Positions 19,190 through 38,630 of a DNA stretch of 55,693 bases are shown in pieces. The notes beneath the pieces are model-generated. The model had not been told where the DNA came from. It searched no databases and saw nothing but the letters and a program-made list of their open reading frames with translations. How positions within the stretch are numbered: position 1 is the stretch's first letter; every line of letters starts with the position of its first letter. Source of the stretch: a virus (taxonomy: Duplodnaviria > Caudoviricetes). The position numbers and the translations under genes were made by a program. The stretch spans positions 1-55,693 of IMG/VR virus record IMGVR_UViG_3300049926_000024. One strand, given 5' to 3'.

Positions 19190-19958
19190 TTTTTAAATCC
19201 TTCTGGTGAGATTTTCCCTGTTCTTTTCGTGTAGGCCCCTTTAAATGGTCCATCCACTTCCCCAGGACGTGAATAAAGGGGTGCTTAAATTTCGCATACT
19301 CCCCAGAGAGATTAGTTACTGGAAGATTCCGTTCTTTCTCTATGACCTGCCACCATACCCAGGAATCATGCGTCTGTTCCAGGTTCTGAACGCTGCCGCT
19401 GACGTAATATTTCAGCATGGCCGTAATCAAGTCCAGGAAGGCCGGGTGGTGTGTGTCAAACAGCAAGAAACCGCATTCGGGATAGTTGCCTTCACGTTCC
19501 AGCCAGGCCACCACGTCGCCTTCATTCAGCAACGCCTTCATTTCTTTGCTGCTGACGGGTGCATGGGTCACGGTGTCCGCATCTAACCATAGCAGGTAAC
19601 GATTCTTGTTATGCTTCAGTGCGGCTTCTGCCACCACGAAGACTTTATAGGCGAACCTGATAGCGTCCCAGTGCATGGTGTAGCCACCGTGGATTTTCCC
19701 GTTCATGTTCGGGGTATGCCTGAATGCGCCTATGAAATTGTGCAGTAGAGGAATGGCCGTAAGCGGAAGGGTTTTTACACCCCTCCGCCCGCCACCTTCA
19801 AAGAAGGTATTAACGGCTGTGTACACTGGACTATCTGCATTATCCAGGTACAAGATTAAGTTTACGTCATTTTCCCAGTGCTTGGCAAACGTTTCTATGA
19901 ACTTGCGCCCATAAAGGTCATAATGCTTGTCTGCAAAGGTGGAAACGACGGTCAACAT
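19155..19958 (-). CDS. GT-A fold glycosyltransferase-like protein
   Basis: DAIRFAYKVF...LLWLDADTV (DxD motif)...ECGFLLF...HDSWVW...DHLKG. Confidence 0.72.
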   Translation of the reverse strand: MLTVVSTFADKHYDLYGRKFIETFAKHWENDVNLILYLDNADSPVYTAVNTFFEGGGRRGVKTLPLTAIPLLHNFIGAFRHTPNMNGKIHGGYTMHWDAIRFAYKVFVVAEAALKHNKNRYLLWLDADTVTHAPVSSKEMKALLNEGDVVAWLEREGNYPECGFLLFDTHHPAFLDLITAMLKYYVSGSVQNLEQTHDSWVWWQVIEKERNLPVTNLSGEYAKFKHPFIHVLGKWMDHLKGPTRKEQGKSHQKDLKIDRPERYWQNL

Positions 19959-25745: not shown

Positions 25746-27080
25746 TTAAACCAGGCTACCTTGTGTTGTTTTCGCGCCACCAATCGGGAACACCTGATTG
25801 ATATAATACCCGAAGCCGTCGCTTAAATGCGTCAGTTCCGGCGTTGCTTTCTTGTCAATCTCGCCACTGCCGCCCTTAAGCAGCGTCACCCCTTCCAGGT
25901 CTTTTACGACGTGCGGGGCTTTACGTGGGTCTATCATCATCCTAACGCGTTTATCCATTGTGAGCAAGCGCGAATTGACAGCGTTGACACGGGTACGTTC
26001 CAAGGGGTTAGCTTTCGGGACGTTCATGCTGAACTGTTCCTTGAAGTGCGGGCGTAGTATCTGGCTGATTAATTCCCAGTCGCTACCTGCCACTTTCGCA
26101 CTGCCCCTGCTGCCTCCTGTTGCGTCCCCGTAGCAAATAACGCGGCCTTGGTGATTGCCCCAGTCGGTAATGATTCGGGCGCATACGGCAGGCGTGTTGC
26201 TGTTGCGGGGGATATGCACTTCGCCTATGATTCCCGTGCCTTGTTCACCATTGGGAAGCAGTTGTTCCTGGATGATTGAGGCGGTCCCAGGGGCCACGTT
26301 GAAGTCAAAGCAAAGAATCAGGGGTTGCCGTGGGTCGTATTTGAGCGGGGCGCAGTGAATGCGGTCGTCGAACGGGTAGTAGGCACGGCCTTCAAAATTG
26401 ACAAAGCTGCCTTCATACTCCTGCAAGTACGTCAGTTCGTCCATGTCGTTCTTCGCGCTGGCAATCTCCGAAGCTGGCAGTATGTCCGCGCTTATCCAGT
26501 GGAATAAATCCCATTCCACATTGTCGGGATTCTTGGCAAATTGTGAGAGGTCGTAGTAATGATTTCGCCCTTCCGGCACTCCGATAAACCAAGCCCAGCC
26601 GCCACGGTCGGACAGTGCTGGCCTAATGTTCTCCTGCCATGCTGAAGGCTTCATGTTGCCGAACTCATCCAGCAAACAGCCGTTCCAGCTAACACCTTCG
26701 GCACGTTCCGGCTTGTCCATCCCGATAACCCAGATTTCCGCGCCGGTGGTCAGGGTAATCTTCAGTTCCGTTTCGGACGGGGGCTTTAACCACATGCCAC
26801 GGGTCAACTGCTTCAGGTCATTCCAGTAGATTTTCTTTGCTTGGCCATAGGTCGGCGCGGCGCAGAAGTAGCGGTAGTCCAGATATTTCTTCTGCTTTGA
26901 TTCCTTGATAACTTTCTTGACGAACTTGCGCTTTGCCCGTTCTGTCTTGCCCGAACGACGCCCGGCAGGGACTACCAGGAAGCGGGTTTCGGATTCCATG
27001 AAGCGTTTCTGCTCCGGGTGCGGACGCAGCTTGTACCAACGCTTGGAAAGCGCAAACTCACTGCGTTTTTTCTTCGCCAT
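25746..27080 (-). CDS. terL: Terminase large subunit
   Basis: Walker A AGRRSGKT, Walker B LLDEF, IGVPEGRNH, nuclease CFDFNV...HLSDG; start taken at MAKKK (the ORF extends to 27119). Confidence 0.95.
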   Translation of the reverse strand: MAKKKRSEFALSKRWYKLRPHPEQKRFMESETRFLVVPAGRRSGKTERAKRKFVKKVIKESKQKKYLDYRYFCAAPTYGQAKKIYWNDLKQLTRGMWLKPPSETELKITLTTGAEIWVIGMDKPERAEGVSWNGCLLDEFGNMKPSAWQENIRPALSDRGGWAWFIGVPEGRNHYYDLSQFAKNPDNVEWDLFHWISADILPASEIASAKNDMDELTYLQEYEGSFVNFEGRAYYPFDDRIHCAPLKYDPRQPLILCFDFNVAPGTASIIQEQLLPNGEQGTGIIGEVHIPRNSNTPAVCARIITDWGNHQGRVICYGDATGGSRGSAKVAGSDWELISQILRPHFKEQFSMNVPKANPLERTRVNAVNSRLLTMDKRVRMMIDPRKAPHVVKDLEGVTLLKGGSGEIDKKATPELTHLSDGFGYYINQVFPIGGAKTTQGSLV

Positions 27081-27648
27081 CTTCAGCCCCTTCTTCGGGT
27101 TCGTATTCGCTGGCTTCAAGCTCTTCCATCAGTTCCAGAGCGTCAAGGATTTCAGCCGCACGTTCGTCCGTGCCACCTCCGCCGGTGCTGTTGATTTCGG
27201 AAATAGTCTTCTGAACCGCTGCCAGGCGGCCAATGTAGGACATGAGCAAATAATCAAACTGCTTGCGCTTCTTCGTGAAACTCCTGCCTATGCCGTCCTT
27301 CGCGCTGTACGATTCGGTGTAGTCGTCCAGTATTAAACCCTTCGCGTATTTCTGGCAGGTTTCGGGGTCTTTGATGTTGATTATTGCATCAGTATGCGCC
27401 GCAGCATTGGCGATTTTCTCTTCTTCCAGAAGCCGGAATATCCGAATCCGCAGAAGCTTCACTTCGTGCGTAAGCTCGGCGGTTTCCAGTTCTTCAAAGA
27501 TTTCTTCCTCTTCGGGTGTCAGGTGGGTTGCGTACAGGAATCCCTTGAACCTGGCCGCGCTAATGTCTCCAGGTGTCTTGCGTCGTATGACCTTGCAGGG
27601 GATTTTCCCCTTCGTTTCGATTTCTTCCAGGCTCAAAACATGCTCCAA
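27058..27648 (-). CDS. terS: Terminase small subunit (probable)
   Basis: Immediately upstream of terL; GFLYA...LTHEVKLLRIRIFRLL helix and acidic tail. Confidence 0.6.
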   Translation of the reverse strand: MEHVLSLEEIETKGKIPCKVIRRKTPGDISAARFKGFLYATHLTPEEEEIFEELETAELTHEVKLLRIRIFRLLEEEKIANAAAHTDAIINIKDPETCQKYAKGLILDDYTESYSAKDGIGRSFTKKRKQFDYLLMSYIGRLAAVQKTISEINSTGGGGTDERAAEILDALELMEELEASEYEPEEGAEDGEEKTQ

Positions 27649-27738
27649 TGCTTGGTTATCTCATTCCACCATAGCAATTTTACACGGGGAGGGGAAGCGT
27701 TTTGTTTCCAGGTAGGATTTCGGTGTAGCGGCAAAACA

Positions 27739-27846
27739 CCACATAAGGATATTTTCTACAACATTGAAAAATAAAAATGAAATATTAGCAAAAATAGTGC
27801 TACAGCCGCTACAACGTTGAAATATATAGGAAAAAACACGTAACAC
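27739..27846. other. Ori-like element A (inverted homologue of 54835-54942)
   Basis: CCACATAAGGA-34nt-ATTAGCA...GCTACAG.CGCTACA...AACAC in AT-rich non-coding DNA. Confidence 0.55.
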
Positions 27847-28095
27847 CTCATACCACTACCCTATACACCTGCTACAAACAAAAATTCCCCTAAAACCACT
27901 GAAAAATAGACATAAGGTTTTTAAAATAAATTATGCAACACATAAAATTTAGTTTAGTCGCAGGAAGGCATCGTTTACTAGAAAATTTCCTTATGTGGAA
28001 AATCCAATACTGCATAAAATCCCCTGGATTCTTCCACCGTCCACCCTGGCCAAACCCCAAAGGGACCTGCCCAACTCGACACACGCTAAAGCGTC

Positions 28096-28314: not shown

Positions 28315-28344
28315 AAGATACCATAAAGAACGCATAAAAGTCAA
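28315..28344 (-). promoter_or_regulatory. Sigma70-type promoter with conserved TTTATGC spacer
   Basis: TTGACT-tttatgcgttctttatgg(18)-TATCTT. Confidence 0.6.
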
Positions 28345-28601
28345 CTACAAACCGTCACCGAAAGTATTAATATTTTAACTGTTAATCTTAGTTAACAGAA
28401 AATGCTGCACTGCAACATAAAAATCCAGTTAATTTCGTCCCGAAAAAATTAAAGTTTCCGTAACAAACGAAAATTCCCAAGCCCCGAACACCTGGAAAAG
28501 CCGCATAAAAGTCACCTCAAAGGTTAAGGTCTTAACCACTTAGCTAAACCCTGACGCTACTGCCGTCCCATAATCTTCCACCATTCCGTTATATAAAGGT
28601 C

Positions 28602-29033
28602 GTCCCCGCTCACCTGGGCAGGAAAGGGCGGGGACTAAACTGACAGTAACCAACTCCGTTAAATTGGCTTTTGCCTCGCAATAAAATTGCGTGAAGGCTA
28701 AACTACTGCCAGTTATTCGATTATTTACCTGGCTATTTTACCCTCGGTCGTCCCGTGGTAAGGCCTGCCAGTTCCCGGAACAGAAGAGCAAGAACCCTCT
28801 TTCACGTCGTGTCTGTTCCCTGCTTCCGACAGTTCGGCATGTTTTGAGGCCTTACACCTGTCATTTATGCCGAAGTATTCCGTGCCACTTTATCGCAAGT
28901 GGCCAGCGGAAAGATTCCAGGGTAGCATGCTTTGTCGGTTACTTTCACCCGATACAAAAGAAGCGGCAGGACGCCCCCTTTGCTCCTAACCAGCCATTAC
29001 TGGCCGCCTGCGTTCTCTTCACCCTTCCAGGTA
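28602..29033 (-). ncRNA. Candidate large structured non-coding RNA
   Basis: More than a dozen complementary segment pairs, G-U pairs and a GUAA tetraloop favouring the minus strand, a crossing helix pair, and no credible minus-strand gene. Confidence 0.6.
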
Positions 29034-29038
29034 TTTCC

Positions 29039-29221
29039 TTATAAACTCTCTTGGTTGACCACAACACCTTCGCATTTACCGCAAAGTGACTGGTCAGTAT
29101 CGTGTTCATTGCAGGTAATTTCTCCGCAATTCTCACATTCAAAATGTTCAGTGCATGTTCCACAAGGCGGGTTATTGTGACAGTAACATGACCTTTCGCA
29201 CCCTTCAACGCAGCCTATCAT
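29039..29221 (-). CDS. Small Cys-rich (Zn-finger-like) protein
   Basis: CYCHNNPPCGTC...CENC...CGKC. Confidence 0.6.
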   Translation of the reverse strand: MIGCVEGCERSCYCHNNPPCGTCTEHFECENCGEITCNEHDTDQSLCGKCEGVVVNQESL

Positions 29222-29372
29222 AATCCCGTTCCCTCTCCCTGGCTATTGACGCATTCCTGCGGCGTTGTCGCCTGTTTTCCAGGGGAAATTCTGGCGCAGG
29301 AACTTCATAACTTCGTGTCGTTCCTTCGTCATACTTCTTCACGTATGTTCCGGTGTTATCCTCTATAACCAT
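29205..29372 (-). CDS. Hypothetical protein with Arg-rich C-terminus
   Basis: Start taken at MVIEDN after GGGAG; contains NRRQRRR. Confidence 0.5.
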   Translation of the reverse strand: MVIEDNTGTYVKKYDEGTTRSYEVPAPEFPLENRRQRRRNASIARERERDYDRLR

Positions 29373-29373
29373 G

Positions 29374-29910
29374 CTAAAAACTCCCGCTGCTATCACAGCT
29401 TCCAAAATCTGAAGAGGAACACGACGAATCACCGCATGAACTGCTATAATCCGAATAACTACTGGAACAGTCCGGCACTGACGCCGGGGAGCTATCCACC
29501 AGGGCATTGACTACAAGCATGGTCGTAAGAACGTCCATTCCCTGCGGGGTTGTTGCTATCGTGACGGCGTCCTCCTTCTGCCCGATTCCGTGAATCCTGT
29601 CTCTTTCATTCCGTGCGGCGAAGAATTCTTTCGGGTCTTTGTAGGTTTCCTTGAATTCAGACATTTCCTGCTTTTGCCTCTCGTAATCCCCCACAGTAGG
29701 GGCAGGTGGAAGTGTCCGTTTCGCTTCTTCCTCCGCCACACGCCTGGCAATAGCCCTGATTGGCTGCTGTTTCTCCAGCCCTTCGGCTATCAGGTTCCGC
29801 ATTTCTTCCCTGAACTTCTCTTCCCGTTGTTCCAGTAGCTGCGCTGCCCTCTTCTCCGCCACAGGGTCGGAAAGAAGCCACGCTGCAAATTTACCTAAAA
29901 ATGATACCAT
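29374..29910 (-). CDS. Hypothetical protein with Ser/Asp/Cys low-complexity tail
   Basis: AAAGGAG RBS; ends DCSSSYSDYSSSCGDSSCSSSDFGSCDSSGSF. Confidence 0.7.
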   Translation of the reverse strand: MVSFLGKFAAWLLSDPVAEKRAAQLLEQREEKFREEMRNLIAEGLEKQQPIRAIARRVAEEEAKRTLPPAPTVGDYERQKQEMSEFKETYKDPKEFFAARNERDRIHGIGQKEDAVTIATTPQGMDVLTTMLVVNALVDSSPASVPDCSSSYSDYSSSCGDSSCSSSDFGSCDSSGSF

Positions 29911-29931
29911 AGTAAAAATCTCCTTTCCGTT

Positions 29932-29960
29932 AAATTACCTGGCCGCTGCATAAAAGTCAA
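29932..29960 (-). promoter_or_regulatory. Sigma70-type promoter with TTTATGCA spacer
   Basis: TTGACT-tttatgcagcggccagg(17)-TAATTT. Confidence 0.75.
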
Positions 29961-29973
29961 CTGATTATTTCAT

Positions 29974-30297
29974 TTAGTGACAACAAACAGGGCATTCGTC
30001 CCAGTCTTCGTATTCATGCGGACACAGAACCGGCGGCGTAGCCTTCTTGTTGAAATAAATGCTGCCCTTCGTCTTAAAGTGCAGGCAGTCCGGCGGCCTT
30101 ACGGTGCAGCTCCACCAGAATTTCAGGAAGTCTTTGCGCGGCTCTTTATACCATTTTCGGTCAAGGTGCTTGCATACCCTGAAAGTGAAATGCAATGCCC
30201 GAATTCCGCACCACAAATAAAGGCCGAATAGTACGGCCAGTATCAGGGCAAACAACCCCCACACTAACCCGCCGGTGTAATAAAATAAGGTTGTCAT
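29974..30297 (-). CDS. Hypothetical protein with N-terminal TM helix and Cys-rich tail
   Basis: 107 aa, tightly packed with neighbours. Confidence 0.6.
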   Translation of the reverse strand: MTTLFYYTGGLVWGLFALILAVLFGLYLWCGIRALHFTFRVCKHLDRKWYKEPRKDFLKFWWSCTVRPPDCLHFKTKGSIYFNKKATPPVLCPHEYEDWDECPVCCH

Positions 30298-30300
30298 TTG

Positions 30301-30672
30301 CTATCGTTTCCTGTTAAGTTGTTCCTGGGCTTGGCCCATGAGGTCTTCGTATGAAGGCTGAACTGGGGGCTGGTCAACAGTCCCTTCTCCCTTACAGTCT
30401 TCACACATTACCCAGTTCACCGCATGAATAAGCGGGGCTTTCCCCCTTCCCTGGCAATGGGCGCAGGTGTATTGCTTCGGTTCGTCCATGCGTGACGTGG
30501 CGAACCACACTTCCCCCTTCCCTTTGACATAATTCAAGGCCTCTAAGATACTTATTGCGTCGTCCTTATGAGTGCATAACGCCATTCTTCTAGGCTGCCC
30601 GTTTATTAGCAGCAACACTTCAAACCCCTGCGGAATTTCCGCCATGCCGAAAGTAACCTGTCTATTTGTCAT
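30301..30672 (-). CDS. Protein with DnaJ-type Zn-finger repeats
   Basis: CAHCQGRG and CEDCKGEG (CxxCxGxG); start taken at MTNRQ. Confidence 0.6.
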   Translation of the reverse strand: MTNRQVTFGMAEIPQGFEVLLLINGQPRRMALCTHKDDAISILEALNYVKGKGEVWFATSRMDEPKQYTCAHCQGRGKAPLIHAVNWVMCEDCKGEGTVDQPPVQPSYEDLMGQAQEQLNRKR

Positions 30673-31219
30673 TTTTAGGCCTCGCATTCGGGAAGTTATC
30701 ATAAAATTTACTGGCGTAGGGCAAGTGGTCAACGTCCCAGGTTCCCGTCTTCCAGAAAGCATCTGGCGCATGCGCTATAACATTCAGCGCATCCATAGGG
30801 CTAGTTTCCACGTCAAAAATACCCCGTTCCACCCACCTATGAATCCAGGCCAGTTGCTCGGTCAGTTTCTTAATTCTCTCCCCTTGTACGTCGGAAGGGG
30901 GTAGTTCATTGCTGCGGTTATTCCATGCGTCCAGGGTTGCGCTAAAGTCTGGCCGGTTAAGGTAGAAGGCCTTCTTTTCCCCTGGCTGCTCAAACCTGGC
31001 AATGCGGAAGCAGTTGAACTTTACCATGGACCGGCAGGCATTACAGTCCACCGCCACGCCGCCCATGTACTCACTTAGGCCGCCAGTATCTTCAACCAGT
31101 ATTACCTTTCCCCTACAGAAGGGGCAGGGTTTAAGCAATCCGTTATTGAAGCTTTCAAAAATGAGGCGGTCGCGGCCTCTATAGTATTCGTAGAATTCTG
31201 TTGCGGTAATGAAGTCCAT
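30662..31219 (-). CDS. Lar-like (restriction alleviation family) Zn-ribbon protein
   Basis: LKPCPFCRG...CNAC...DAWNNR. Confidence 0.6.
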   Translation of the reverse strand: MDFITATEFYEYYRGRDRLIFESFNNGLLKPCPFCRGKVILVEDTGGLSEYMGGVAVDCNACRSMVKFNCFRIARFEQPGEKKAFYLNRPDFSATLDAWNNRSNELPPSDVQGERIKKLTEQLAWIHRWVERGIFDVETSPMDALNVIAHAPDAFWKTGTWDVDHLPYASKFYDNFPNARPKNDK

Positions 31220-31368
31220 TCTTTGATTCCTTGCACTATTTCAGTGAGGTCACGCTGGAAGTTCTCCGCCTTATACCTGTTCGGCTCTCCCTCCCCGCGT
31301 TGTGTTGCCTCTTCCATAAACTTGATTATTTCCTGGCGTTTTTCGCCCCTGTCCCTACTTATTTCCAT
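31102..31368 (-). CDS. Hypothetical protein
   Basis: GGAGGT RBS before MEISRD; 3' end overlaps the next gene. Confidence 0.4.
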   Translation of the reverse strand: MEISRDRGEKRQEIIKFMEEATQRGEGEPNRYKAENFQRDLTEIVQGIKEWTSLPQQNSTNTIEAATASFLKASITDCLNPAPSVGER

Positions 31369-31387
31369 GATAGTTACCTCCCATAGT

Positions 31388-31558
31388 TTAAGCGGTTCTT
31401 CCCTTATCAATTTCGGCCAAAATCTTCCTGGCTAACTCAGGGTCTGATTGAATCCGTCTTTCCAGTTCCCAGCACCTATCACATAATTTAGTCCCTAGAC
31501 TGGAAGTTAGTGTTTTACATAGTCGGCACTCACAAACTGGAATATTTCCTGTTCTCAT
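31388..31558 (-). CDS. Small Zn-finger-like protein (56 aa), not in the ORF track
   Basis: MRTGNIPVCECRLC...LCDRCWELERRI; ATGA overlap with the upstream gene. Confidence 0.55.
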   Translation of the reverse strand: MRTGNIPVCECRLCKTLTSSLGTKLCDRCWELERRIQSDPELARKILAEIDKGRTA

Positions 31559-32694
31559 GCTGCTTTCTCCTTCTCTACCGCTGCCGGTCTGTTGTCAAAA
31601 TCAAAATAATCCAGCATGTGTTCCGCTATCGTGTCTACCGCAATCCGTGCATGCTGTATCTGGAAGCAGCCCAGTAAATAAAAGAACGGGAGCTTCTTAG
31701 GCTCTGTCAAGAGCTTTGCGTTAAGCACGATGGATTTACCCGATACCCTATAATTTTCTTCCATAGCGGCAAGTGTGAGCGATTCCGGTACAAAATCAAG
31801 CATGCCGGTAAGCTTCGTCAGTTTCTTCTGGACGGCGCGGCTTAATGTGGCCTTCGGAAGCTGCGCTACAAAGGCCGGGTAGTGATTTCCATAGAACTTT
31901 TCCAAAGCTTCGGGCTTCTTCCGCATTTTATTGACAAACTGCATGAAGGTTTCTGACGGGCTATGGTACTTCTGGAAGTTCAGGCGGCCTTCCAGAAAGT
32001 CACCCTCTACTGATAGCACGGTCAGAATTGCGTCAACGTTCTTCGTAGACACTAAGGCCTTCACTATTTCCCACTCGGCGTCAAACTGGCTTACTGTCCT
32101 GTCTTCCGTCAGCGATAAATGGCCTTTGAGATTATACCCATAGAAACTTCCCAGTTCAGCAACGCGGATTCCTTTGTAGAAAATGCCCGGCTGGTGGTGA
32201 ATTTCAACGTCCCCCATCACCTGGAAAGCCTCCCCCTGAAGCAGGAATTCCGTGCGCTCGGCGTGGATTTCGTCCAGCCCGTCCACGACTATAGCCGTGC
32301 CGGTGCTCTCAAAATTGTGGCTTTCCGGTCCCAGGAGCGTCCCGCCCTCATCCTGGCAATTGCTCCACAGTTCCCGGTATGCCTGCCACAGTTTCCAGTT
32401 CTTCCCTAGTTCGGTCGTGAAGGGAAGGCGGAATTCTTCCTGGTTCAGTTCATCCACCATATAGATAAACTGGAAGTCCTTACCCCGCACCGTTTCATTG
32501 CGTACTTCAAAACTGAAAAGCCGCTGGTCAGTGCCAAGCTGAATAGCGCAGCCCTCACGAAGCAGGACAGCGATAGCATACTTCAGGCCTGTCCCGAAGT
32601 AACCTATGGGGCTGTCGGTTTGTTTCACGGATACCCCGAACGTCGTAATACATTCCAGGGGAAGGGGTGCTTCGTTGTAAAAAGTGATAGTCAT
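31555..32694 (-). CDS. GHKL/HATPase-like ATPase domain protein
   Basis: FGVSVK...IGYFGTGLKYAIA and AYRELWSNCQDEGG resemble GHKL G-box and N-box motifs. Confidence 0.65.
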   Translation of the reverse strand: MTITFYNEAPLPLECITTFGVSVKQTDSPIGYFGTGLKYAIAVLLREGCAIQLGTDQRLFSFEVRNETVRGKDFQFIYMVDELNQEEFRLPFTTELGKNWKLWQAYRELWSNCQDEGGTLLGPESHNFESTGTAIVVDGLDEIHAERTEFLLQGEAFQVMGDVEIHHQPGIFYKGIRVAELGSFYGYNLKGHLSLTEDRTVSQFDAEWEIVKALVSTKNVDAILTVLSVEGDFLEGRLNFQKYHSPSETFMQFVNKMRKKPEALEKFYGNHYPAFVAQLPKATLSRAVQKKLTKLTGMLDFVPESLTLAAMEENYRVSGKSIVLNAKLLTEPKKLPFFYLLGCFQIQHARIAVDTIAEHMLDYFDFDNRPAAVEKEKAA

Positions 32695-32747
32695 AAAATT
32701 TCCAATAAATAAAATCTATTAATTATTCCCAGAAAATAGCCTTGTGT

Positions 32748-33092
32748 CTAATTACTGGCTTTTTCGGTGGTTGCTTCGCTTATTCTACGCGCCAGCCTGT
32801 TTTTACTGGTAACCAGGCGGCCATAGAGAGATTCACAATAGAGGTGTTCGTATTCCCGTATGACGCCTGAAGTGTCCAGCATTTGGCTGGTTAGGTTCTG
32901 GGCTTCTTCACTTATTTCTTCATTCTCCACGCGGTAGCGTGTTGCACTTCTAAATAAGTCCTGCCCTGCGGCGGTCAGTTTCATCCTGTGGCTGCCTGAA
33001 GCCCCGCCGTGAGGCATGGCAACATGTTCCCCGATAACTCCCAGACCATCCCCGGCAGATTCAAGCAAATATCTTAATGGGTATGTTGTCAT
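32748..33092 (-). CDS. Hypothetical protein
   Basis: 114 aa ORF in the co-oriented cluster. Confidence 0.55.
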   Translation of the reverse strand: MTTYPLRYLLESAGDGLGVIGEHVAMPHGGASGSHRMKLTAAGQDLFRSATRYRVENEEISEEAQNLTSQMLDTSGVIREYEHLYCESLYGRLVTSKNRLARRISEATTEKASN

Positions 33093-33094
33093 AA

Positions 33095-33466
33095 TTATTT
33101 TACTCTTGAAGTTAAAAATTCTATCTCGTCGAGGGCAGAACGCCGCGTGTGGCCTCTTTCTCTAATCAAAGCCTCAATCCAGGCCTCTCTGATTTTCCAC
33201 CCTCCAGGGACGTAATTATCTAGTAGCCTGTCCGCAAACTTGAATTCCCAGTCTTTAGGGGCGTAAATAAAAACAGCCTTCCCCTGGGCTATTATTACCT
33301 GCCTCTTAAAATAGGCCACCCTCTTAACTGCAAGTGACGTAGCTGTCTTCTCAGAGGGGACGCCAAGGAAAGACGTTAGTTCTGTGTCGTCCTGCACTTC
33401 AAAATAATCTCCCCTGTCCTTCGTCTTCTGCCCGTCCCAGGGGCCGCCTATGCAAAGTAATGTCAT
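33095..33466 (-). CDS. Hypothetical protein
   Basis: N-terminal LCIGGPWDG motif, common in small phage proteins. Confidence 0.6.
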   Translation of the reverse strand: MTLLCIGGPWDGQKTKDRGDYFEVQDDTELTSFLGVPSEKTATSLAVKRVAYFKRQVIIAQGKAVFIYAPKDWEFKFADRLLDNYVPGGWKIREAWIEALIRERGHTRRSALDEIEFLTSRVK

Positions 33467-33642
33467 TTCGATTTACCGTATCCTTGTTGCTCTTCTCTAA
33501 TCATTATTGAAACGTTCATGCTGATAGCCTGGCCCCTGGCTTCCGCTTCCTGCATGAACTTATTGTTATCCCTGTGATACTGCTGGGTTAAAACAACATC
33601 ACGTTCTTTGTCCTGTCTCTCCCACTGGTCGGCCATACTCAT
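33463..33642 (-). CDS. Hypothetical protein (59 aa), not in the ORF track
   Basis: GGGGG RBS, MSMADQWERQDKE...; ATGA overlap with the downstream gene. Confidence 0.55.
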   Translation of the reverse strand: MSMADQWERQDKERDVVLTQQYHRDNNKFMQEAEARGQAISMNVSIMIREEQQGYGKSK

Positions 33643-33714
33643 AGTATACCCCCGCGTAATTGAAACTGCTTTAGAAATTCCGTTATATAATATCAGCGCG
33701 TTGCTGATTCTCTA

Positions 33715-33743
33715 ATCTTAAACCCGGACTGCATAAAAGTCAA
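33715..33743 (-). promoter_or_regulatory. Sigma70-type promoter with TTTATGCA spacer
   Basis: TTGACT-tttatgcagtccgggtt(17)-TAAGAT. Confidence 0.78.
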
Positions 33744-33778
33744 CTAACAAAATGCACTTTTATAAAAATATTTTTATA

Positions 33779-34021
33779 TCAGTCTTCATATAGTTCATTC
33801 GCGGCGGCCACCCGGTGGCAGTTTTCGCAGGTGCGCCAGGTGTAAAGCTCCCCGCCGTCCTTTATCGTCTGGCTAACATACTGCTGCCCTGGCTTTATCG
33901 TGCCTCCGCACTCTTTGACCTGGTCCAGAAGCTCCATTTCGCCGGTATTCCACACCATCCAGTAGGCTTCACAGTTATGCTTCTTTCTGGCTTTAGGCTT
34001 AGTTTCCTGTACTAAAATCAT
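33779..34021 (-). CDS. Small Zn-binding hypothetical protein
   Basis: KARKKHNC...CGGTIKPGQQY...CENC. Confidence 0.6.
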   Translation of the reverse strand: MILVQETKPKARKKHNCEAYWMVWNTGEMELLDQVKECGGTIKPGQQYVSQTIKDGGELYTWRTCENCHRVAAANELYED

Positions 34022-34431
34022 TGCTCTGCTCCTCTCATGTAAAACAGTAAATCAACAAAACGTTCAAAAACCTGGCAATCGTTGATTGAAACCCGCAGTT
34101 TTCCGTTGTCCGCGTTGCAGGGGATAGCCCAGGGAATGAAGCAAAACAGTTCTGTCCTGCCCTTTATCCTGAATACTACGAAAACTTCCCCGCCTGCGCT
34201 TCTCCTGGCCCTAGTCCAGTTGATTTGCTGGGGGTTTAGTCCGGTGTCAAAAACGCCGTTCTTCGGAATGCTGTTTAAATATTTGGCCTCAATCCATTTT
34301 TCCCCGTGGTTTCCACAGAAGTTAATATCTGGAACCCCGGAAGACATGCGGTTTTCAATCCGCTGGACATGCTCCCCATACTCCCGCAGGTTTTTGACCA
34401 GGTAATTTACCAGCGTGGTTTCGTTACTCAT
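34018..34431 (-). CDS. VRR-NUC / Holliday-junction resolvase-like PD-(D/E)xK nuclease
   Basis: RIEN...GVPDIN...WIEAK...LNPQQINW...AGG. Confidence 0.8.
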   Translation of the reverse strand: MSNETTLVNYLVKNLREYGEHVQRIENRMSSGVPDINFCGNHGEKWIEAKYLNSIPKNGVFDTGLNPQQINWTRARRSAGGEVFVVFRIKGRTELFCFIPWAIPCNADNGKLRVSINDCQVFERFVDLLFYMRGAEQ

Positions 34432-35363
34432 ACTATCCCCTTCAAAATATGCGCTATTACGTCAACCGTCCAGCCGTTCCCCACGGCAGCGTAACGCTGT
34501 GTCCGTGACAGGCTGGCGGTGTAATTATCTGGAAGCGTCTGTAGCCTCTCAAATTCCAGGGGTGTCAACTTGCGGAACCGCTTGCCGTCCCAGATTACAT
34601 GCTCCCGGCTTAGTGACGTCGTCAGGCAATTGGCCTTTCGGTCGAACCTGGCGGCCATTTCCTTACCACGGCGCGGGCTGAAGTCCCTACCATGCTCTTT
34701 CTGGAACTCACGGCGCATTTTCCTAGCCTCTTCCGTCCTTCTTTCGGTCAGCGCGTAAGGGGCCGGCCCGGTCGGAAGTATCGAACTATCTTGACCTTTC
34801 CAGAACTTCGCCCCTACTTCATATTCAGGCGGCACGGTGTCCATTTCTTCCAGTATCATATCAATGGTGACACCGTTATCGTCTGGAAGGGTGACACCCT
34901 TCATATTTGTCCAGTAAAGGCGTGGCCGCTGCTGGGCGGAAAGAAGGCTGCTGTTAATAAGGAGGGGTTCCACTCCCAGAAGCCGCGTGATAATGTCACG
35001 GTTCGCCTTCGTCATGCTGGCCACATTTTCAAACAGGAAATTTTCCGGCTGCATTTCTTCCTTCACGCGGATAAACTCAAAGAACAGGCCGCTTTTCTCT
35101 CCAGCTAAACCCTGCCGGTCCCTGGAGCAACACGAAAGGTCCTGACAAGGTGACCCCGCCAGTAGCAGGTCTATTTTCCCGTGCTTGTTTCCCTTCACCT
35201 GCCTTATGTCGCCCACCTGAACCGTCAGCGGGTAATGCTTCTGGGTCACAGAAATTGCATGCGGGTCTATTTCACTGGAGAAGTACGACGTTATCGGGAT
35301 TCCCGCCCTCTCCAGGGCAACCTGGCCGCAAGAAATACCGTCGAAGGCTGAAAACACGCGCAT
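34428..35363 (-). CDS. DNA cytosine-5 methyltransferase
   Basis: FDGISCG (motif I), GSPCQ (IV), ENV (VI), QQRPRLYW (VIII), ERLQTLP, GNGW (X). Confidence 0.92.
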   Translation of the reverse strand: MRVFSAFDGISCGQVALERAGIPITSYFSSEIDPHAISVTQKHYPLTVQVGDIRQVKGNKHGKIDLLLAGSPCQDLSCCSRDRQGLAGEKSGLFFEFIRVKEEMQPENFLFENVASMTKANRDIITRLLGVEPLLINSSLLSAQQRPRLYWTNMKGVTLPDDNGVTIDMILEEMDTVPPEYEVGAKFWKGQDSSILPTGPAPYALTERRTEEARKMRREFQKEHGRDFSPRRGKEMAARFDRKANCLTTSLSREHVIWDGKRFRKLTPLEFERLQTLPDNYTASLSRTQRYAAVGNGWTVDVIAHILKGIV

Positions 35364-35554
35364 TATTGCACCCTCTGGACACGGCACTTAGACAAGTCCG
35401 TAGTCACCCACTGCTTAAGCTGGTTATCATAGCCCACGATAGCCAATTGCTTACCGCGAACATCACATTCAATATTACTTACCTGGAAAGTGTAAACGTC
35501 CGGGCCATCTTCCACGCGGACTTTGTCACCTTTCTTCATAGCGGCTTCGGTCAT
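35363..35554 (-). CDS. Hypothetical protein
   Basis: 63 aa, overlaps both neighbours by 1-4 nt. Confidence 0.5.
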   Translation of the reverse strand: MTEAAMKKGDKVRVEDGPDVYTFQVSNIECDVRGKQLAIVGYDNQLKQWVTTDLSKCRVQRVQ

Positions 35555-36246
35555 GGCAAAACCTCATAGAGAATACGAACCGGCCCCGTACATACAGAAG
35601 GGGTAGGCTTTTCCCCGTCAGTATATTCCTGCTGGGCTTCCATAAGCCGCCGGTGTACGATGAACAGCATGCCGTTAGAACTTTCTACCTTCAGCATCCA
35701 GCCTTCTTGATAGGGGAAGCCTGCCCCGTCAGGTTCACCTTCGGCCTTCTCCCGGAACCTAATGCTGTAGACTCTCTCAAATTCCGCCGCCTTAAACTGG
35801 GTCATTTTAGGGTAGGCTACAAACCTATTCCTGTTTCTGGGGTCGATATGTAGCTCTTTCGCGTCAGGGATAAAGGCTATTGTATGCTGTGAAGCCTTCT
35901 TTAGGGATTCATTCACATTCTGCTTTTCAAGGTGACCGTCAATAGAGGCTACAGGTTTCTTATCTACAGCCATAAACCTAGCACCCAGCGCGGCGTAGCC
36001 ACAAATATCCACCAAGTTATCCCGCTTTGCGGCCCCGGTTGTTCCACGTGAAACTTTCATGAGGGTCATTATCATTGCAACGTCAATGCCGGTAAGCTCA
36101 AAGTCCACCTTGAATTTCGTTTTCAAATACCAAGTCCACAGGCTGGCCAGGGCAACGAAGCTGTCAGTCACGTCCCCGTAATCAACGCGCCTGTCCCCTG
36201 CAATAATTTTGTCGGCTTCCGCCAGAATATCGTCGTGTATTGTCAT
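35551..36246 (-). CDS. DUF6378-domain protein with C-terminal extension
   Basis: ILAEADKIIAGDRRVDYGD...ASLW...MKVSR...DNLVDICGYA. Confidence 0.75.
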   Translation of the reverse strand: MTIHDDILAEADKIIAGDRRVDYGDVTDSFVALASLWTWYLKTKFKVDFELTGIDVAMIMTLMKVSRGTTGAAKRDNLVDICGYAALGARFMAVDKKPVASIDGHLEKQNVNESLKKASQHTIAFIPDAKELHIDPRNRNRFVAYPKMTQFKAAEFERVYSIRFREKAEGEPDGAGFPYQEGWMLKVESSNGMLFIVHRRLMEAQQEYTDGEKPTPSVCTGPVRILYEVLP

Positions 36247-36558
36247 TTAAGCTACCTCTCTTACGGGTCTTGTTTGTTTCACCATGTCCTGGAACTTCGT
36301 GCCGGTTTCCTTCACAAAGGGCTTTACCGGTTCCACCTGGACACTTTCCAGTTCGGCCACGGTAGGCACTTTTTCCACTTCGTTCCAGCGTTTCCGAAAG
36401 TCGAAAACCCCTTGCATCATGGTAACAAAGGCACTTCCGAAGATAGCCACGGTCAGCGGGGAACCCTCTGGACTCGCCTGCCGGATTCCGGCGGTAATCA
36501 AAACCCCTATAGAGGTCAAAACCCGTGCTACGGGCATAATATATTTACTTCTTGCCAT
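36247..36558 (-). CDS. Small membrane protein
   Basis: Two hydrophobic segments at the N-terminus. Confidence 0.55.
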   Translation of the reverse strand: MARSKYIMPVARVLTSIGVLITAGIRQASPEGSPLTVAIFGSAFVTMMQGVFDFRKRWNEVEKVPTVAELESVQVEPVKPFVKETGTKFQDMVKQTRPVREVA

Positions 36559-36763
36559 CTTTAGGCCTCTTCTCCTGGAGTTCTCTAAGCTGCCGAAGCA
36601 GGCTATCTATTTTCCTGGTATCTTTCAGGAAGGGGGTTTTGATACGCCTGCACATACTAAGCAGCGCATCACGGGCAGCCTTAAAATCTGCTTCGCTTTC
36701 ATCCTGCCAGGTAGGCTTTCGCTGTTCGGGCAACTGGTCAAAAAGACTGTCTTGTTTACTCAT
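36545..36763 (-). CDS. Hypothetical protein
   Basis: GAGGGGG RBS; overlaps neighbours. Confidence 0.55.
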   Translation of the reverse strand: MSKQDSLFDQLPEQRKPTWQDESEADFKAARDALLSMCRRIKTPFLKDTRKIDSLLRQLRELQEKRPKDGKK

Positions 36764-36956
36764 ACATACCCCCTCTATTTTGGTTCGTAATCTCTGCTAC
36801 CCTACTGTGAATTATCTGGTTTATTTCCTGCGCCCTTTGCACTGCATTATCTATTAACACTGAATAATAGTTCACCGTGTTAGTAATCTCTTCCATTTCA
36901 AGGTGAAGATTCCTTATTTCGGCCTCTAAGTAAGCGGCAGAGTTCACAGGATGCAA
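36756..36956 (-). CDS. Hypothetical coiled-coil protein
   Basis: 66 aa, start uncertain. Confidence 0.45.
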   Translation of the reverse strand: MHPVNSAAYLEAEIRNLHLEMEEITNTVNYYSVLIDNAVQRAQEINQIIHSRVAEITNQNRGGMYE

Positions 36957-36980
36957 GAGAACAACATTGTCCTGTATAAC

Positions 36981-37178
36981 CTATTCCTCCAGTTTATCTT
37001 TCAGCCATTCGGGAAGCTGAATAGTTGCTGCGCCGCCTTCTTCTTCTACTTCGGCTTCCACCTGGCTTTTCGGAAGCCAGTGTTCGCTTCCGTCGTCTAA
37101 CTGGACCAGGTAGGCCTTGTCAGTTTCACGAATGACGGTGCATTCAATTTCTACTATGCTGTTATTGCTCTTACGCAT
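36981..37178 (-). CDS. Small beta-rich phage protein
   Basis: ETDKAYLV...HWLPKSQV...LPEWL pattern. Confidence 0.65.
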   Translation of the reverse strand: MRKSNNSIVEIECTVIRETDKAYLVQLDDGSEHWLPKSQVEAEVEEEGGAATIQLPEWLKDKLEE

Positions 37179-37404
37179 GACTTATTCCTTGTTCGTAAAT
37201 GATGAAACGGATTTCCGCCAGCTTTGCACTGTCGCTGCCTTCATCTTCCAGTATTTCCTTGACGCACTGAACCTGATTGTGCGCTTTAAAAATGTTGCGG
37301 TCAGCCCTGTCAAATGCTGGCTGTAATTGCGCCATCTTGGCAGTGATTAACTGGTCGCGCTTTACTTGAAGACGTGATTGAATATTGATAATTTTTGCTG
37401 ACAT
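37171..37404 (-). CDS. Hypothetical protein
   Basis: AGGGAG RBS preceded by the ATAACGGA box. Confidence 0.6.
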   Translation of the reverse strand: MSAKIINIQSRLQVKRDQLITAKMAQLQPAFDRADRNIFKAHNQVQCVKEILEDEGSDSAKLAEIRFIIYEQGISHA

Positions 37405-37416
37405 TTTAACTTCTCC

Positions 37417-37572
37417 CTATTTTCCGTTATTCAAGGTCGGTAAGTATGCGGCGGCAGTCACAACGTGGTAATTTTCAGTATTGATATGCTTCTTCAGTTC
37501 TTCGGTAAAGAATTCAAAAACTGCTTTCCCTGTGGCCTTGCTGACTACGATATAGCTGTCTTTCCCGCGCAT
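37417..37572 (-). CDS. Hypothetical protein (51 aa), not in the ORF track
   Basis: MRGKDSYIVVSKATGKAVFEFF...; first gene after the promoter at 37629-37657. Confidence 0.55.
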   Translation of the reverse strand: MRGKDSYIVVSKATGKAVFEFFTEELKKHINTENYHVVTAAAYLPTLNNGK

Positions 37573-37628
37573 TCTTCTCTTCCTATCTTCCGTTATATAA
37601 TCTGCTTCTATGCAGTGCTGATTCTGTA

Positions 37629-37657
37629 ACTCTAAACCCGCACTGCATAAAAGTCAA
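37629..37657 (-). promoter_or_regulatory. Sigma70-type promoter with TTTATGCA spacer
   Basis: TTGACT-tttatgcagtgcgggtt(17)-TAGAGT. Confidence 0.75.
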
Positions 37658-37683
37658 CTAGGAAAATAAAGATTCCATAAAAA

Positions 37684-37860
37684 TTATTGCCTGCGAAGAA
37701 GCCCTAATTCTTTGGACAATTCCAGGCTTGCCCGCTTTACCCGGCCTTCTTCCAGCAAGTGGCTGTCGTCCAGGCCGTCGGTCTTTTCCAGTAAATCATT
37801 CGCCCGCTCAATGAAACGCTGGGCTTCACTAACTGCTACCTTTAATTGTCCTCTATCCAT
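37684..37860 (-). CDS. Hypothetical protein (58 aa), not in the ORF track
   Basis: AAGGAG RBS; MDRGQLKVAVSEAQRFIERA...KRASLELSKEL. Confidence 0.55.
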   Translation of the reverse strand: MDRGQLKVAVSEAQRFIERANDLLEKTDGLDDSHLLEEGRVKRASLELSKELGLLRRQ

Positions 37861-38629
37861 TGTCTTTATGCTCCTTCACTGCTTGGTTATAGGCGTTCAG
37901 AATCTTCCGGCCCTTTATTTGCGCCTTGGAAAATTCCCCGGCGTCTTCGCTGTTCAGGAGCTTATCCAGCACCTTGAAAACTTTCTTCTGTTCCTGGCCT
38001 GCAATTTCAAGCAGTGACTTATAGGTAGCCGTCTGGAAATTTGTGGCGAAGTCTTTATTATACTGCTGGGCGGCCTTAAAACTTTCTTCCAGGGGCTTTG
38101 TTATTGCGTCAGCAATTTCTTCCTCTATGCGGGTGTGTAGGATTTCGCCCAGCTTAGTATCCTTTTCCTGCGCCTCTTCCAGCTTCATTTCCCAGGACAT
38201 TAGAAGGAGCATTATTTTCTGGGTTATCGTGTTGCCTTCCGTGCTGGAAAGCCCACGCGTGGCCAGGAACCCCTGGAACGCGCAAAGTTCTTTTTCCAGG
38301 TCACTTAATTGTTTCTGAAGGAGGGATACAACGTTATTGCGCTGGGCGGCTTCGTCACTCAGGTTCGCTATTTCACGTTTCCTTCTGTGGGAATCCTCTA
38401 TCAACTGGCCTATAGCAAGCGTCAGGTCTAACGGAATAGCGTAAATGTCGTCTGTCCTGAAGTTGCGAAGATTGACCACATGCCTACCTTCTGCCACGTA
38501 AACGGTAGAGAAATATTCAGTGTTCGGAATCTCCCCGGCAATAACCGTGCCGAAGTGTTTAGCGATTTCCCAGCTTGCATCAGAAGCCGGGGCTTGCTGG
38601 CAGGTGTTAGGGTTCTGTTCTTTTGACAT
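37853..38629 (-). CDS. Hypothetical coiled-coil protein
   Basis: 258 aa ORF. Confidence 0.65.
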   Translation of the reverse strand: MSKEQNPNTCQQAPASDASWEIAKHFGTVIAGEIPNTEYFSTVYVAEGRHVVNLRNFRTDDIYAIPLDLTLAIGQLIEDSHRRKREIANLSDEAAQRNNVVSLLQKQLSDLEKELCAFQGFLATRGLSSTEGNTITQKIMLLLMSWEMKLEEAQEKDTKLGEILHTRIEEEIADAITKPLEESFKAAQQYNKDFATNFQTATYKSLLEIAGQEQKKVFKVLDKLLNSEDAGEFSKAQIKGRKILNAYNQAVKEHKDNG

Positions 38630-38630
38630 T

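What the first reader, a model, noticed from the sequence alone, without database searches (positions are those of the whole stretch)
28602..29033. Candidate ~430-nt structured, pseudoknotted non-coding RNA
Seen, pairings in plus coordinates: 28726-32/29027-33 closes a large domain; 28739-44/28919-24; 28758-66/28847-55 (9 bp) crosses 28833-40/28867-74 (8 bp), a pseudoknot or switch; 28777-84/28812-19 encloses two small hairpins; 28878-90/28897-911; 28932-38/28949-57; 28966-70/29007-11 encloses GGCCA-GUAA-UGGCU (GNRA loop). A second multiloop, 28638-48/28704-14, holds two hairpins, and 28602-09/28628-35 forms a last hairpin. Several mismatches become G-U pairs only on the minus strand, the direction of all genes. 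It starts right after the stop at 29039 in an otherwise gene-dense genome. I do not recognise it as tRNA, tmRNA, RNase P, a group I/II intron or a hammerhead. Inference: an undescribed phage ncRNA.
Basis: partly seen in the sequence, partly recalled or inferred. Interest (0 to 1): 0.85.

Follow-up and report, generated by a model that had tools for sequence, protein, structure and literature searches.

The report
Orphan structured non-coding stretch in phage
A 430-base gap between the early genes and the DNA-packaging genes of an uncultured soil phage folds far more stably than chance and encodes no protein, so it may be a new structured RNA, but no relative exists to prove it.

Summary

On the gene (minus) strand, 28590-29040 folds at -167 kcal/mol, z = -3.96, with 0 of 100 shuffles as stable. 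It ranks 3rd of 257 windows of the genome. Most of the signal comes from a 117-nt 3' module (z = -5.6). The 308-nt 5' domain is weaker (z = -3.0). The 9-bp pseudoknot is about iso-energetic with the nested fold, so it stays open.

The stretch is non-coding. It has mixed stops in five of six frames, and the one open plus-strand ORF has non-coding codon usage and no relatives.

It matches no Rfam family, tRNA or tmRNA, and the genome has no reverse transcriptase.

No homologue was found in 197 related loci, 22 whole virus records or 155 bacterial genomes. Covariation therefore could not be tested.

Verdict: a credible but unproven orphan structured RNA at the 3' end of the last early/middle operon. 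Confidence is about 0.5.

The parts
28602..29033 (-). Whole structured non-coding stretch (candidate RNA)
   Evidence: MFE -164.6 kcal/mol with 140 pairs. The 451-nt context gives z = -3.96, 0 of 100 shuffles. Rank 3 of 257 genome windows. No Rfam match.
28726..29033 (-). 5' domain of 308 nt, closed by a 7-bp helix (29033-29027 with 28732-28726). It holds a three-way junction with a GUAA-loop hairpin and a 12-bp hairpin, several further hairpins and a second three-way junction.
   Evidence: z = -3.02, 1 of 100 shuffles as good. Closing helix pair probability 0.98; 5' junction helices 0.52-0.64.
28833..28874 (-). Hairpin with an 8-bp stem. Its 26-nt loop carries the 5' strand of the candidate pseudoknot (28855-28847).
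   Evidence: z = -3.0. Pair probability 0.94.
28758..28766 (-). 3' strand of the candidate 9-bp pseudoknot or switch. With 28847-28855 it makes the two halves of a 12-nt palindrome.
   Evidence: 9/9 Watson-Crick pairs. Duplex -14.0 kcal/mol. Pseudoknot state about -164.7 kcal/mol against nested -164.6 before any pseudoknot penalty.
28638..28714 (-). 3' three-way junction: an 11-bp closing stem and two hairpins
   Evidence: z = -5.41, 0 of 200 shuffles. Pair probability 0.94.
28602..28635 (-). Terminal G+C-rich hairpin (8-bp stem), followed by only a weak U-tract
   Evidence: z = -2.84. Pair probability 0.98. Not called by the terminator scan.
29039..29221 (-). Upstream gene: a 60-aa, 12-Cys small protein. 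Its stop lies 6 nt before the structure.
   Evidence: Five small relatives (51-76 aa, E 5e-5 to 6e-4) share the Cys/His/Pro-Pro pattern. 24 viral loci encode relatives.
29205..29372 (-). 55-aa ORF with a C-terminal arginine-rich stretch, in the same operon
   Evidence: Translation. Only itself in the 5.8-billion-protein set. No Pfam match.
29947..29959 (-). Nearest upstream copy of the phage's recurring promoter motif; probable start of the operon that carries the structure
   Evidence: Motif search found 11 matches against 1.65 expected.
28584..28593 (-). Exact copy of the recurring pre-Shine-Dalgarno motif, 8 nt after the terminal hairpin
   Evidence: 9 exact copies, all on the minus strand, against 0.37 expected. 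Contexts.
28557..28571 (-). Mini-ORF (start, 3 codons, stop) behind that motif
   Evidence: Read from the sequence.
28474..28498 (-). First canonical terminator-like hairpin plus T-run downstream of the structure
   Evidence: Terminator scan.
28402..28418 (-). Second terminator-like site
   Evidence: Terminator scan.
28315..28346 (-). Last copy of the promoter motif, with an 18-nt spacer and a -10-like hexamer. It is a candidate promoter for the small ORF and the late genes.
27058..27648 (-). Small terminase subunit, the first recognisable late gene, about 950 nt downstream
   Evidence: phrog_1889, E = 2e-4.

Best explanation
The stretch is a genuine non-coding, highly structured RNA element read on the minus strand.

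It is carried at the 3' end of the last early/middle operon. That operon runs from the promoter motif at 29959 through a 178-aa gene, a 55-aa arginine-rich ORF and a 60-aa zinc-type protein gene, then into the structure. The element sits just before a cluster of terminator-like hairpins and the promoter that precedes the packaging and virion genes.

Anatomy:
- A robust 117-nt 3' module: a three-way junction plus a G+C hairpin.
- A looser 308-nt 5' domain closed by a 7-bp helix. This domain can sit in two nearly iso-energetic states: nested, or a 9-bp pseudoknot together with helix 28919-24/28739-44.

Most likely mode of action (inferred, not shown): it acts in cis as a compact 3' block that ends and protects the early/middle transcript at the early-late boundary, and it may persist as a stable RNA after the coding part decays. 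It belongs to no described RNA family.
For: - Folding: z = -3.96, 0 of 100 shuffles, on the minus strand, against -2.83 on the plus strand. The 3' module gives z = -5.64 on the minus strand and -4.49 on the plus strand. The 5' domain gives z = -3.02. Rank 3 of 257 genome windows.
- Flanking non-coding DNA is unstructured.
- G+C is 0.50-0.51 in the structure, against 0.34-0.42 in the adjacent non-coding DNA.
- Non-coding: mixed stop codons in five of six frames. The open plus-strand ORF scores -0.153 in codon usage, against 0.205 +/- 0.06 for genes. It has no Pfam match and no relative in 5.8 billion proteins. No six-frame similarity to 173 related loci.
- Context: all genes lie on the minus strand. 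No sigma-70-like promoter lies on the minus strand between 29217 and 28344. The nearest upstream promoter motif is at 29959. Terminator-like sites lie at 28498-28474 and 28418-28402.
- It is the largest ORF-free gap in a 93% coding genome.
Against: - No homologue was found anywhere, so there is not one covarying pair. The evidence is thermodynamic and positional only.
- Two other 432-nt windows of the same genome fold at least as well relative to G+C. One lies inside a UvrD-type helicase gene, so about 1% of windows reach this level without being RNA genes.
- In 150-nt windows only the 3' module stands out. The 5' three-way junction alone gives z = -1.3.
- The terminal hairpin has no good U-tract, so where the transcript ends is unknown.
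- Phages with related terminases (up to 62-65% identity) and phages with relatives of the upstream zinc-type protein have no such element. It is therefore not needed by that gene set.
Confidence: 0.5

Rival explanations
1. It has no function of its own. It is spacer DNA at a mosaic junction between the early and late modules, for example the remains of a lost gene or a recombination scar, and its hairpins exceed chance by luck or as leftover terminators.
For: - It is an orphan: no homologue in 197 loci, 22 virus records or 155 genomes.
- Relatives of both neighbouring gene sets lack it.
- A complete translation-start motif followed by only a 3-codon ORF sits right behind it, which looks like debris of a lost gene.
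- Two other genome windows fold as well.
- The 5' domain is only moderately significant.
Against: - z = -5.6 for the 3' module, with 0 of 200 shuffles as good, and -3.96 overall.
- G+C is kept at coding level while the neighbouring non-coding DNA is A+T-rich.
- No trace of a decayed frame or of protein similarity.
- Phage genomes seldom keep 430 nt of useless DNA (general knowledge).
Confidence: 0.27
2. It is a cis-acting riboregulator of late transcription. As part of a read-through transcript it would alter RNA polymerase, or fold alternatively (nested against pseudoknot state), to control passage through the tandem terminators into the ~27-kb late operon. This would resemble put-type or EAR-type processive antitermination RNAs.
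For: - It lies directly upstream of two or three terminator-like hairpins and the late genes.
- The late region 1-28000 has no clear copy of the recurring promoter motif (only one 2-mismatch match at 19908-19920, inside a gene) and no convincing copy of the translation-start motif (two 1-mismatch matches only), so it looks like one long operon.
- There are two iso-energetic conformations.
- An arginine-rich small ORF lies next door.
Against: - A promoter-like site (28346-28315) lies between the element and the late genes, so late transcripts need not contain it.
- Known antitermination RNAs are much smaller and sit just downstream of a promoter (recalled).
- Nothing here tests read-through.
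Confidence: 0.1
3. It is a DNA-level element: a packaging (pac/cos) site, a replication origin or an array of protein-binding sites, with the inverted repeats acting in DNA.
For: - It is close to the terminase genes.
- The plus strand also folds better than shuffles, z = -2.83 overall and -4.49 for the 3' module.
- The 127-nt terminal repeat of the record looks like an assembly overlap (inferred), so the true genome ends are unknown.
Against: - No direct-repeat family lies within it, only single 10-11-nt chance-level pairs.
- No GC-skew turn.
- 19 of 140 pairs are G-U, which are mismatches in DNA.
- A better pac/cos candidate exists: the A+T-rich 27685-27936 directly before the small terminase gene was unchanged in related phages while the gene itself had 10 substitutions.
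Confidence: 0.08
4. It encodes protein: the 117-aa plus-strand ORF 28691-29044 or a minus-strand ORF.
For: One frame is open for 117 codons.
Against: - Codon score -0.153, within the antisense ORF range.
- No Pfam family.
- No relative among 5.8 billion proteins.
- It lies opposite to every recognised gene.
Confidence: 0.03

Closest known systems
GOLLD and ROOL: large ornate non-coding RNAs, often phage- or prophage-borne, of unknown function
   Same: It is a large (several hundred nt), multi-junction non-coding RNA candidate in a phage with no known function. Its palindromic loop sequence could in principle pair between molecules. GOLLD, ROOL and OLE form homo-oligomers (PMC12286853; search listing and start of the abstract only).
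   Different: No Rfam model matches. It is smaller. No tRNA genes lie nearby. GOLLD and ROOL rest on hundreds of covarying sequences; this is a single sequence.
cabRNA of staphylococcal phages
   Same: A structured phage RNA associated with the terminase region (PMC10686824; search listing and start of the abstract only).
   Different: cabRNA is transcribed from within the terminase genes. This element is non-coding, about 950 nt upstream of the small terminase gene, and shows no sequence relation. No host sensor is known here.
phi29 packaging RNA (pRNA)
   Same: A phage-encoded structured RNA with loop-loop pairing, functionally tied to DNA packaging (recalled).
   Different: pRNA is about 120-174 nt, occurs in protein-primed podoviruses that lack a TerS/TerL-type terminase, and is (as recalled) in Rfam. 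No hit was found here. A role in packaging is pure speculation.
Processive antitermination RNAs (HK022 put, EAR) and the lambda late leader
   Same: Its position, just before terminators at the entry to a long late operon.
   Different: Those elements are about 70-200 nt and lie just downstream of their promoter (recalled). Here a promoter-like site lies between the element and the late genes.
Candidate structured RNAs of IMG/VR phages (Fremin et al. 2023)
   Same: That survey reports cis-regulatory candidates upstream of packaging genes, among them 14 upstream of a putative large terminase (PMC10690425, passages from sections 2.1 and 2.6).
   Different: Those candidates are 29-151 nt and needed at least 3 distinct matching regions. 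A 430-nt singleton could not have been found that way.

Membership tests
Any Rfam 15 family (4227 models, including RNase P, tmRNA, 6S, group I/II introns, GOLLD, ROOL, HEARO, riboswitches and small ribozymes) | A covariance-model score at or above the family's gathering score | tested here: not met
   0 matches in the whole window at gathering score. With permissive filters on 456 nt, the best were a microRNA hairpin model at 17.1 bits (cut-off 40, E = 0.89) and three others at E of 2 or more.
tRNA / tmRNA | Cloverleaf, or tRNA-like domain plus tag reading frame | tested here: not met
   ARAGORN found 0 genes in the window.
Self-splicing intron (group I or II) | A catalytic-core match, and exons that join into one reading frame | tested here: not met
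   No Rfam intron hit. All three minus frames hit stops within about 20 codons downstream of the element. No reverse transcriptase in the genome.
Retron, DGR or defence-RT non-coding RNA | An adjacent reverse transcriptase gene | tested here: not met
   PF00078 searched in six frames over the whole record: 0 matches. The control rang in 3 of 14 genomes.
Intrinsic terminator | A G+C-rich hairpin with a small loop, followed directly by a run of U | tested here: not met
   The terminal hairpin 28635-28602 was not called by the scan. The first called sites are 28498-28474 and 28418-28402.
Structured functional RNA in general | Base pairs kept by compensatory change across homologues | not testable with these tools
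   No homologue was found.
Structured functional RNA in general | Folding energy well below dinucleotide shuffles, and below the genome background | tested here: met
   z = -3.96. 3' module z = -5.64. Rank 3 of 257.
H-type or loop-to-strand pseudoknot | A crossing helix that is more stable than the competing nested pairs, or that covaries | tested here: inconclusive
   9/9 Watson-Crick pairs, duplex -14.0 kcal/mol. Total about -164.7 against -164.6 kcal/mol before a pseudoknot penalty.

The most novel reading that the evidence does not exclude
It is the founding member of a new class of large phage RNAs, and more than a passive 3' block.

The 12-nt palindrome is split between a 26-nt hairpin loop and a downstream strand. 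This would let the RNA either switch between two folds or pair loop-to-strand between molecules into a homo-oligomer, as ROOL and GOLLD do.

The two orphan small proteins encoded just upstream (one arginine-rich, one with 12 Cys) could be its partners. Together they could form a ribonucleoprotein that times the early-to-late switch or acts on the host.
Probability: 0.1. Interest if true: 0.75.

Novelty: new variant of a known kind. Interest (0 to 1): 0.38.

Why it matters
Large structured RNAs in phages (GOLLD, ROOL) are among the least understood RNAs, and very few classes are known. A new one placed exactly at the early/late gene boundary would offer a handle on how uncultured soil phages time their gene expression, or on how they use RNA against the host.

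As it stands, the case is a single sequence. Its value is as a concrete, cheap target:
- 430 nt that can be synthesised and probed.
- A marker to look for when deeper assemblies of the same soils appear.

If the null reading holds, it is only an unusually hairpin-rich spacer.

Tried and rejected
Sequence searches for homologues, all empty:
- blastn of 1 kb against 50,697 phage records and of 451 nt against 72,556 plasmids.
- nhmmer and blastn against 80, then 160, then 173 fetched loci. The self locus was found as a positive control, and the other hits were at E = 5.8 only.
- Six-frame pieces by tblastn against 173 loci: one hit, at E = 0.076.

Covariance-model searches, all without a significant hit:
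- R1 (261 nt) and R2 (117 nt) over 173 loci near related terminases, and over 24 loci near relatives of the upstream protein. Best E values were 5.4 and 1.1.
- R1 alone over 22 whole related virus records, 4 genomes that carry related terminases and 151 genomes of one order.

Exact scans of viral contigs:
- A 20-mer from the element: 0 hits.
- The 17-nt promoter motif: 3 single hits, about the number chance gives.

Anchor proteins:
- The DNA polymerase and the 379-aa protein have no close relatives in viral contigs.
- The nearest annotated phage (MW202621.1, terminase 59% identical) has a different layout with no gap.
- ORF-free gaps in four related loci were folded (L084, L110, L114, L126). 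None was clearly structured (z +0.4 to -2.1). The script then timed out, so the rest were not done.

Sequencing runs:
- No RNA holder was listed.
- Of the four runs laid, two soil runs hold a ~97% identical phage at depth ~3, but only one 36-nt, under-90%-alike piece from a freshwater run touches 28602-29033, so they say nothing about it.

Other:
- Rejected ideas: alternative genetic code (stops of all three kinds in the frames); tRNA fragment at 28520-28560 (no ARAGORN call; it reads as a plain hairpin); transposon-like insertion (the ends are not inverted repeats, by eye).

Full report
WHAT THE WINDOW IS

The window is a whole IMG/VR virus record of 55,693 bp. Its 127-nt exact terminal repeat looks like an assembler overlap, so I treat the record as a circular assembly with unknown physical ends (inference).

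Every recognisable gene is on the minus strand. Read on that strand, the order is:
- Replication and nucleotide-metabolism genes: SNF2 and UvrD-type helicases, an AEP primase, family A DNA polymerase, ThyX, an exonuclease, and a C5 methylase.
- A run of small orphan genes.
- The small and large terminase subunits and portal, then the virion genes.

The finding lies exactly at the junction between those two halves.

THE OBSERVATION

Eight pair completely without gaps. The two with unequal arms pair with a bulge or internal loop.

The nested minimum-free-energy fold of 28602-29033 on the minus strand is -164.6 kcal/mol, with 140 pairs (76 G-C, 45 A-U, 19 G-U). It contains seven of the ten helices in whole or in part. 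Most have pair probabilities of 0.90-0.99.

Three reader helices are not in that fold: the pseudoknot 28758-66/28847-55, helix 28739-44/28919-24, and helix 28966-70/29007-11. Adding the 9-bp duplex (-14.0) gives about -164.7, equal to the nested fold before any pseudoknot penalty.

The pseudoknot remains undecided. The two strands are halves of one 12-nt palindrome, so each also contains a 6-nt self-complementary core.

IS IT MORE THAN CHANCE?

For 28590-29040 on the minus strand, z = -3.96 and 0 of 100 dinucleotide shuffles fold as well. The plus strand gives -2.83.

Against a G+C regression of 256 overlapping 432-nt windows of this genome, the target's residual is -30.5 kcal/mol (3.2 sd), rank 3 of 257. 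The two better windows are the region between the tail chaperone and the tape-measure gene, and a stretch inside a UvrD-type helicase gene. Such stability therefore does occur here without an RNA gene, in roughly 1% of windows.

The neighbouring non-coding DNA is not structured: z = +0.42, -1.95 and -1.54.

The signal is uneven:
- The 117-nt 3' module (three-way junction 28714-28638 plus hairpin 28635-28602) has z = -5.64, 0 of 200 shuffles.
- The 308-nt 5' domain has z = -3.02, 1 of 100 shuffles.
- Within the 5' domain, the first three-way junction (z = -1.3) and the second (z = -1.3) are unremarkable on their own.
- In 150-nt windows only 28601-28750 stands out.

The structured stretch keeps the G+C of coding DNA (0.50-0.51), while the rest of the gap is A+T-rich (0.34-0.42).

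IT IS NOT CODING

- Five of the six frames have mixed TAA, TAG and TGA stops, so no recoding rescues a frame.
- The open plus-strand frame (28691-29044, 117 aa) has a codon-usage score of -0.153. Real genes score 0.205 +/- 0.06 and antisense ORFs score -0.07 +/- 0.095.
- That ORF has no Pfam match and no relative among 5.8 billion proteins.
- Six-frame pieces of the whole gap find nothing in 173 related loci.

IT IS NO KNOWN RNA

- Rfam 15 gives nothing at gathering score over the window. Permissive searches give only chance-level hairpin matches, best E = 0.89 at 17 bits against a cut-off of 40.
- ARAGORN finds no tRNA or tmRNA.
- The genome has no reverse transcriptase, which removes retron, DGR, defence-RT and group II readings.
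- No frame continues across the element, which argues against an intron.

THE HUNT FOR RELATIVES

This was the decisive test and it failed for lack of material.

The terminase large subunit has relatives of at most 62-65% identity:
- In IMG/VR (80 loci).
- In JGI metagenomes (80 loci).
- In GTDB genomes (9 loci, mostly alphaproteobacterial MAGs).
- In GenBank phages (best 59%).

The DNA polymerase and a 379-aa early protein have no close relatives. The phage's own 17-nt promoter motif recurs in no other viral contig beyond chance.

None of the following gave a significant hit:
- nhmmer and blastn (the self control was found).
- Two single-sequence covariance models: R1, 261 nt, and R2, 117 nt. 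Both were run over 197 loci.
- R1 alone over 22 whole virus records and 155 bacterial genomes.

The tools may withhold records very near the window, as their outputs state.

Two soil runs hold a ~97% identical phage, but no contig of theirs covers the element. Covariation therefore could not be examined at all.

THE NEIGHBOURS

The 60-aa, 12-Cys ORF that ends 6 nt before the structure is a real gene. An exhaustive phmmer search found five small proteins (51-76 aa, E 5e-5 to 6e-4) with the same Cys/His/Pro-Pro/Cys pattern.

In the four viral loci with full-length relatives, the next gene follows at once. The RNA is therefore not a companion of that family.

The 55-aa ORF before it has a C-terminal arginine-rich stretch and no relatives.

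TRANSCRIPTION CONTEXT

A 13-17-nt promoter motif (a -35-like hexamer plus a conserved spacer start) occurs about ten times, essentially all on the minus strand. It gave 11 matches against 1.65 expected. All but one lie between 28.3 and 47.3 kb; the exception is a 2-mismatch match at 19908-19920 inside a gene.

The nearest copy upstream of the element is at 29959. No sigma-70-like site lies between 29217 and 28344 on the minus strand. The element is thus most simply the tail of the operon that starts at 29959.

A second motif occurs 9 times, all on the minus strand, against 0.37 expected. Each copy sits 10-35 nt before a Shine-Dalgarno sequence and start codon. One exact copy lies 8 nt after the terminal hairpin, followed by a start codon, three codons and a stop. 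A one-base-shorter variant spans the stop codon at the 5' edge of the structure, though that 9-mer is barely above chance (2 copies against 0.63 expected).

The element is therefore bracketed by gene-boundary signals, as a discrete module would be. Whether that motif is a translation enhancer, a processing site or a -10-only promoter is open.

Downstream lie two canonical terminator-like sites (28498-28474 and 28418-28402), another promoter-motif copy with a -10-like hexamer (28346-28315), a plausible 54-aa ORF, an A+T-rich stretch and the small terminase gene.

WHAT IT MOST LIKELY IS

Shown:
- A non-coding stretch that folds much better than chance on the transcribed strand.
- It has a very well-defined 3' module.
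- It sits at the end of an operon and before terminators.

Inferred:
- It is made as RNA.
- It blocks 3' exonucleases and marks the end of early/middle transcription.
- It may outlive the message as a stable RNA.

I put 0.5 on 'a functional structured RNA element', with the cis 3'-end role as the most likely mechanism within that.

Rivals:
- Functionless junction spacer, 0.27.
- Riboregulator of read-through into the late operon, 0.10.
- DNA-level site, 0.08. The better pac/cos candidate is the A+T-rich 27685-27936 next to the small terminase gene. It was unchanged in related phages, while the adjacent coding DNA had 10 changes in about 250 nt.
- Protein-coding, 0.03.

COMPARISON AND NOVELTY

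By kind it resembles the large phage-borne RNAs GOLLD and ROOL, which assemble into homo-oligomers (PMC12286853, listing and start of abstract). By position it resembles RNAs linked to the terminase region:
- cabRNA (PMC10686824, listing and start of abstract).
- The short candidates upstream of terminase genes in the IMG/VR survey (PMC10690425, passages). That survey could not have detected a 430-nt singleton, since its candidates were 29-151 nt with at least 3 matching regions.

It is a member of none of these; every membership feature that could be tested was not met. If real, it is a new family within a known kind of thing. On present evidence it is a reasonable candidate, not a discovery, and I score interest at 0.38.

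Noticed in passing
window 28331-47246, minus strand (copies ending at 28343, 28514, 29959, 33742, 37656, 41746, 43898, 47158, 47246): A recurring promoter motif: a -35-like hexamer followed by a conserved 8-nt spacer start, usually with a -10-like hexamer 17-18 nt on. It gave 11 matches against 1.65 expected. Apart from one 2-mismatch match at 19908-19920, none lies in the late-gene half, which suggests that half is one long operon.
   Followed up: partly
window 28584-54746, minus strand (9 exact copies): A conserved 10-nt motif sits 10-35 nt upstream of the Shine-Dalgarno sequence and start codon of genes, often preceded by a hairpin. It could be an extended translation-start signal, an RNA processing site or a -10-only promoter. 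One copy (28593-28584) heads only a 3-codon ORF.
   Followed up: partly
window 12560-12900, minus strand: This is the most stable fold in the genome (781-nt context z = -4.9). It has a long, near-perfect hairpin right after the stop of the 136-aa tail-chaperone-like gene and before the 1800-aa tape-measure gene. It is probably tied to the chaperone frameshift or to 3'-end formation.
   Followed up: partly
window 27685-27936: The A+T-rich non-coding DNA directly upstream of the small terminase gene showed 0 differences in contigs of related phages from two soil runs. A 151-nt piece (27786-27936) was also identical in a freshwater run. The adjacent terS coding DNA had 10 substitutions in about 250 nt. 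It is a candidate pac/cos site or late promoter.
   Followed up: no
window 29039-29221, minus strand; loci L175-L178 near 3001-3190: A small family of about 60-aa phage proteins with an invariant pattern of eight Cys, one His and a Pro-Pro pair. It has no Pfam or PHROG family. It is probably a zinc-binding early protein.
   Followed up: partly
window 29205-29372, minus strand: An orphan 55-aa ORF ending in an arginine-rich stretch of the kind that binds RNA hairpins in some phage regulators (recalled). It overlaps the end of the 178-aa gene by one base.
   Followed up: no
window 1-127 and 55567-55693: The 'direct terminal repeat' is an exact 127-nt overlap, a length typical of an assembler k-mer (recalled). 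The record is probably a circular assembly rather than a genome with true terminal repeats.
   Followed up: partly
window 42950-43381, minus strand: This is the second most stable 432-nt window of the genome (residual -34 kcal/mol), and it lies inside the UvrD-type helicase gene 41781-43367. It was not examined further.
   Followed up: no
loci L166-L172: The closest cellular matches of the large terminase (57-61% identity) lie in alphaproteobacterial MAGs, three of them labelled Aliidongia. This is only a weak hint to the host.
   Followed up: no
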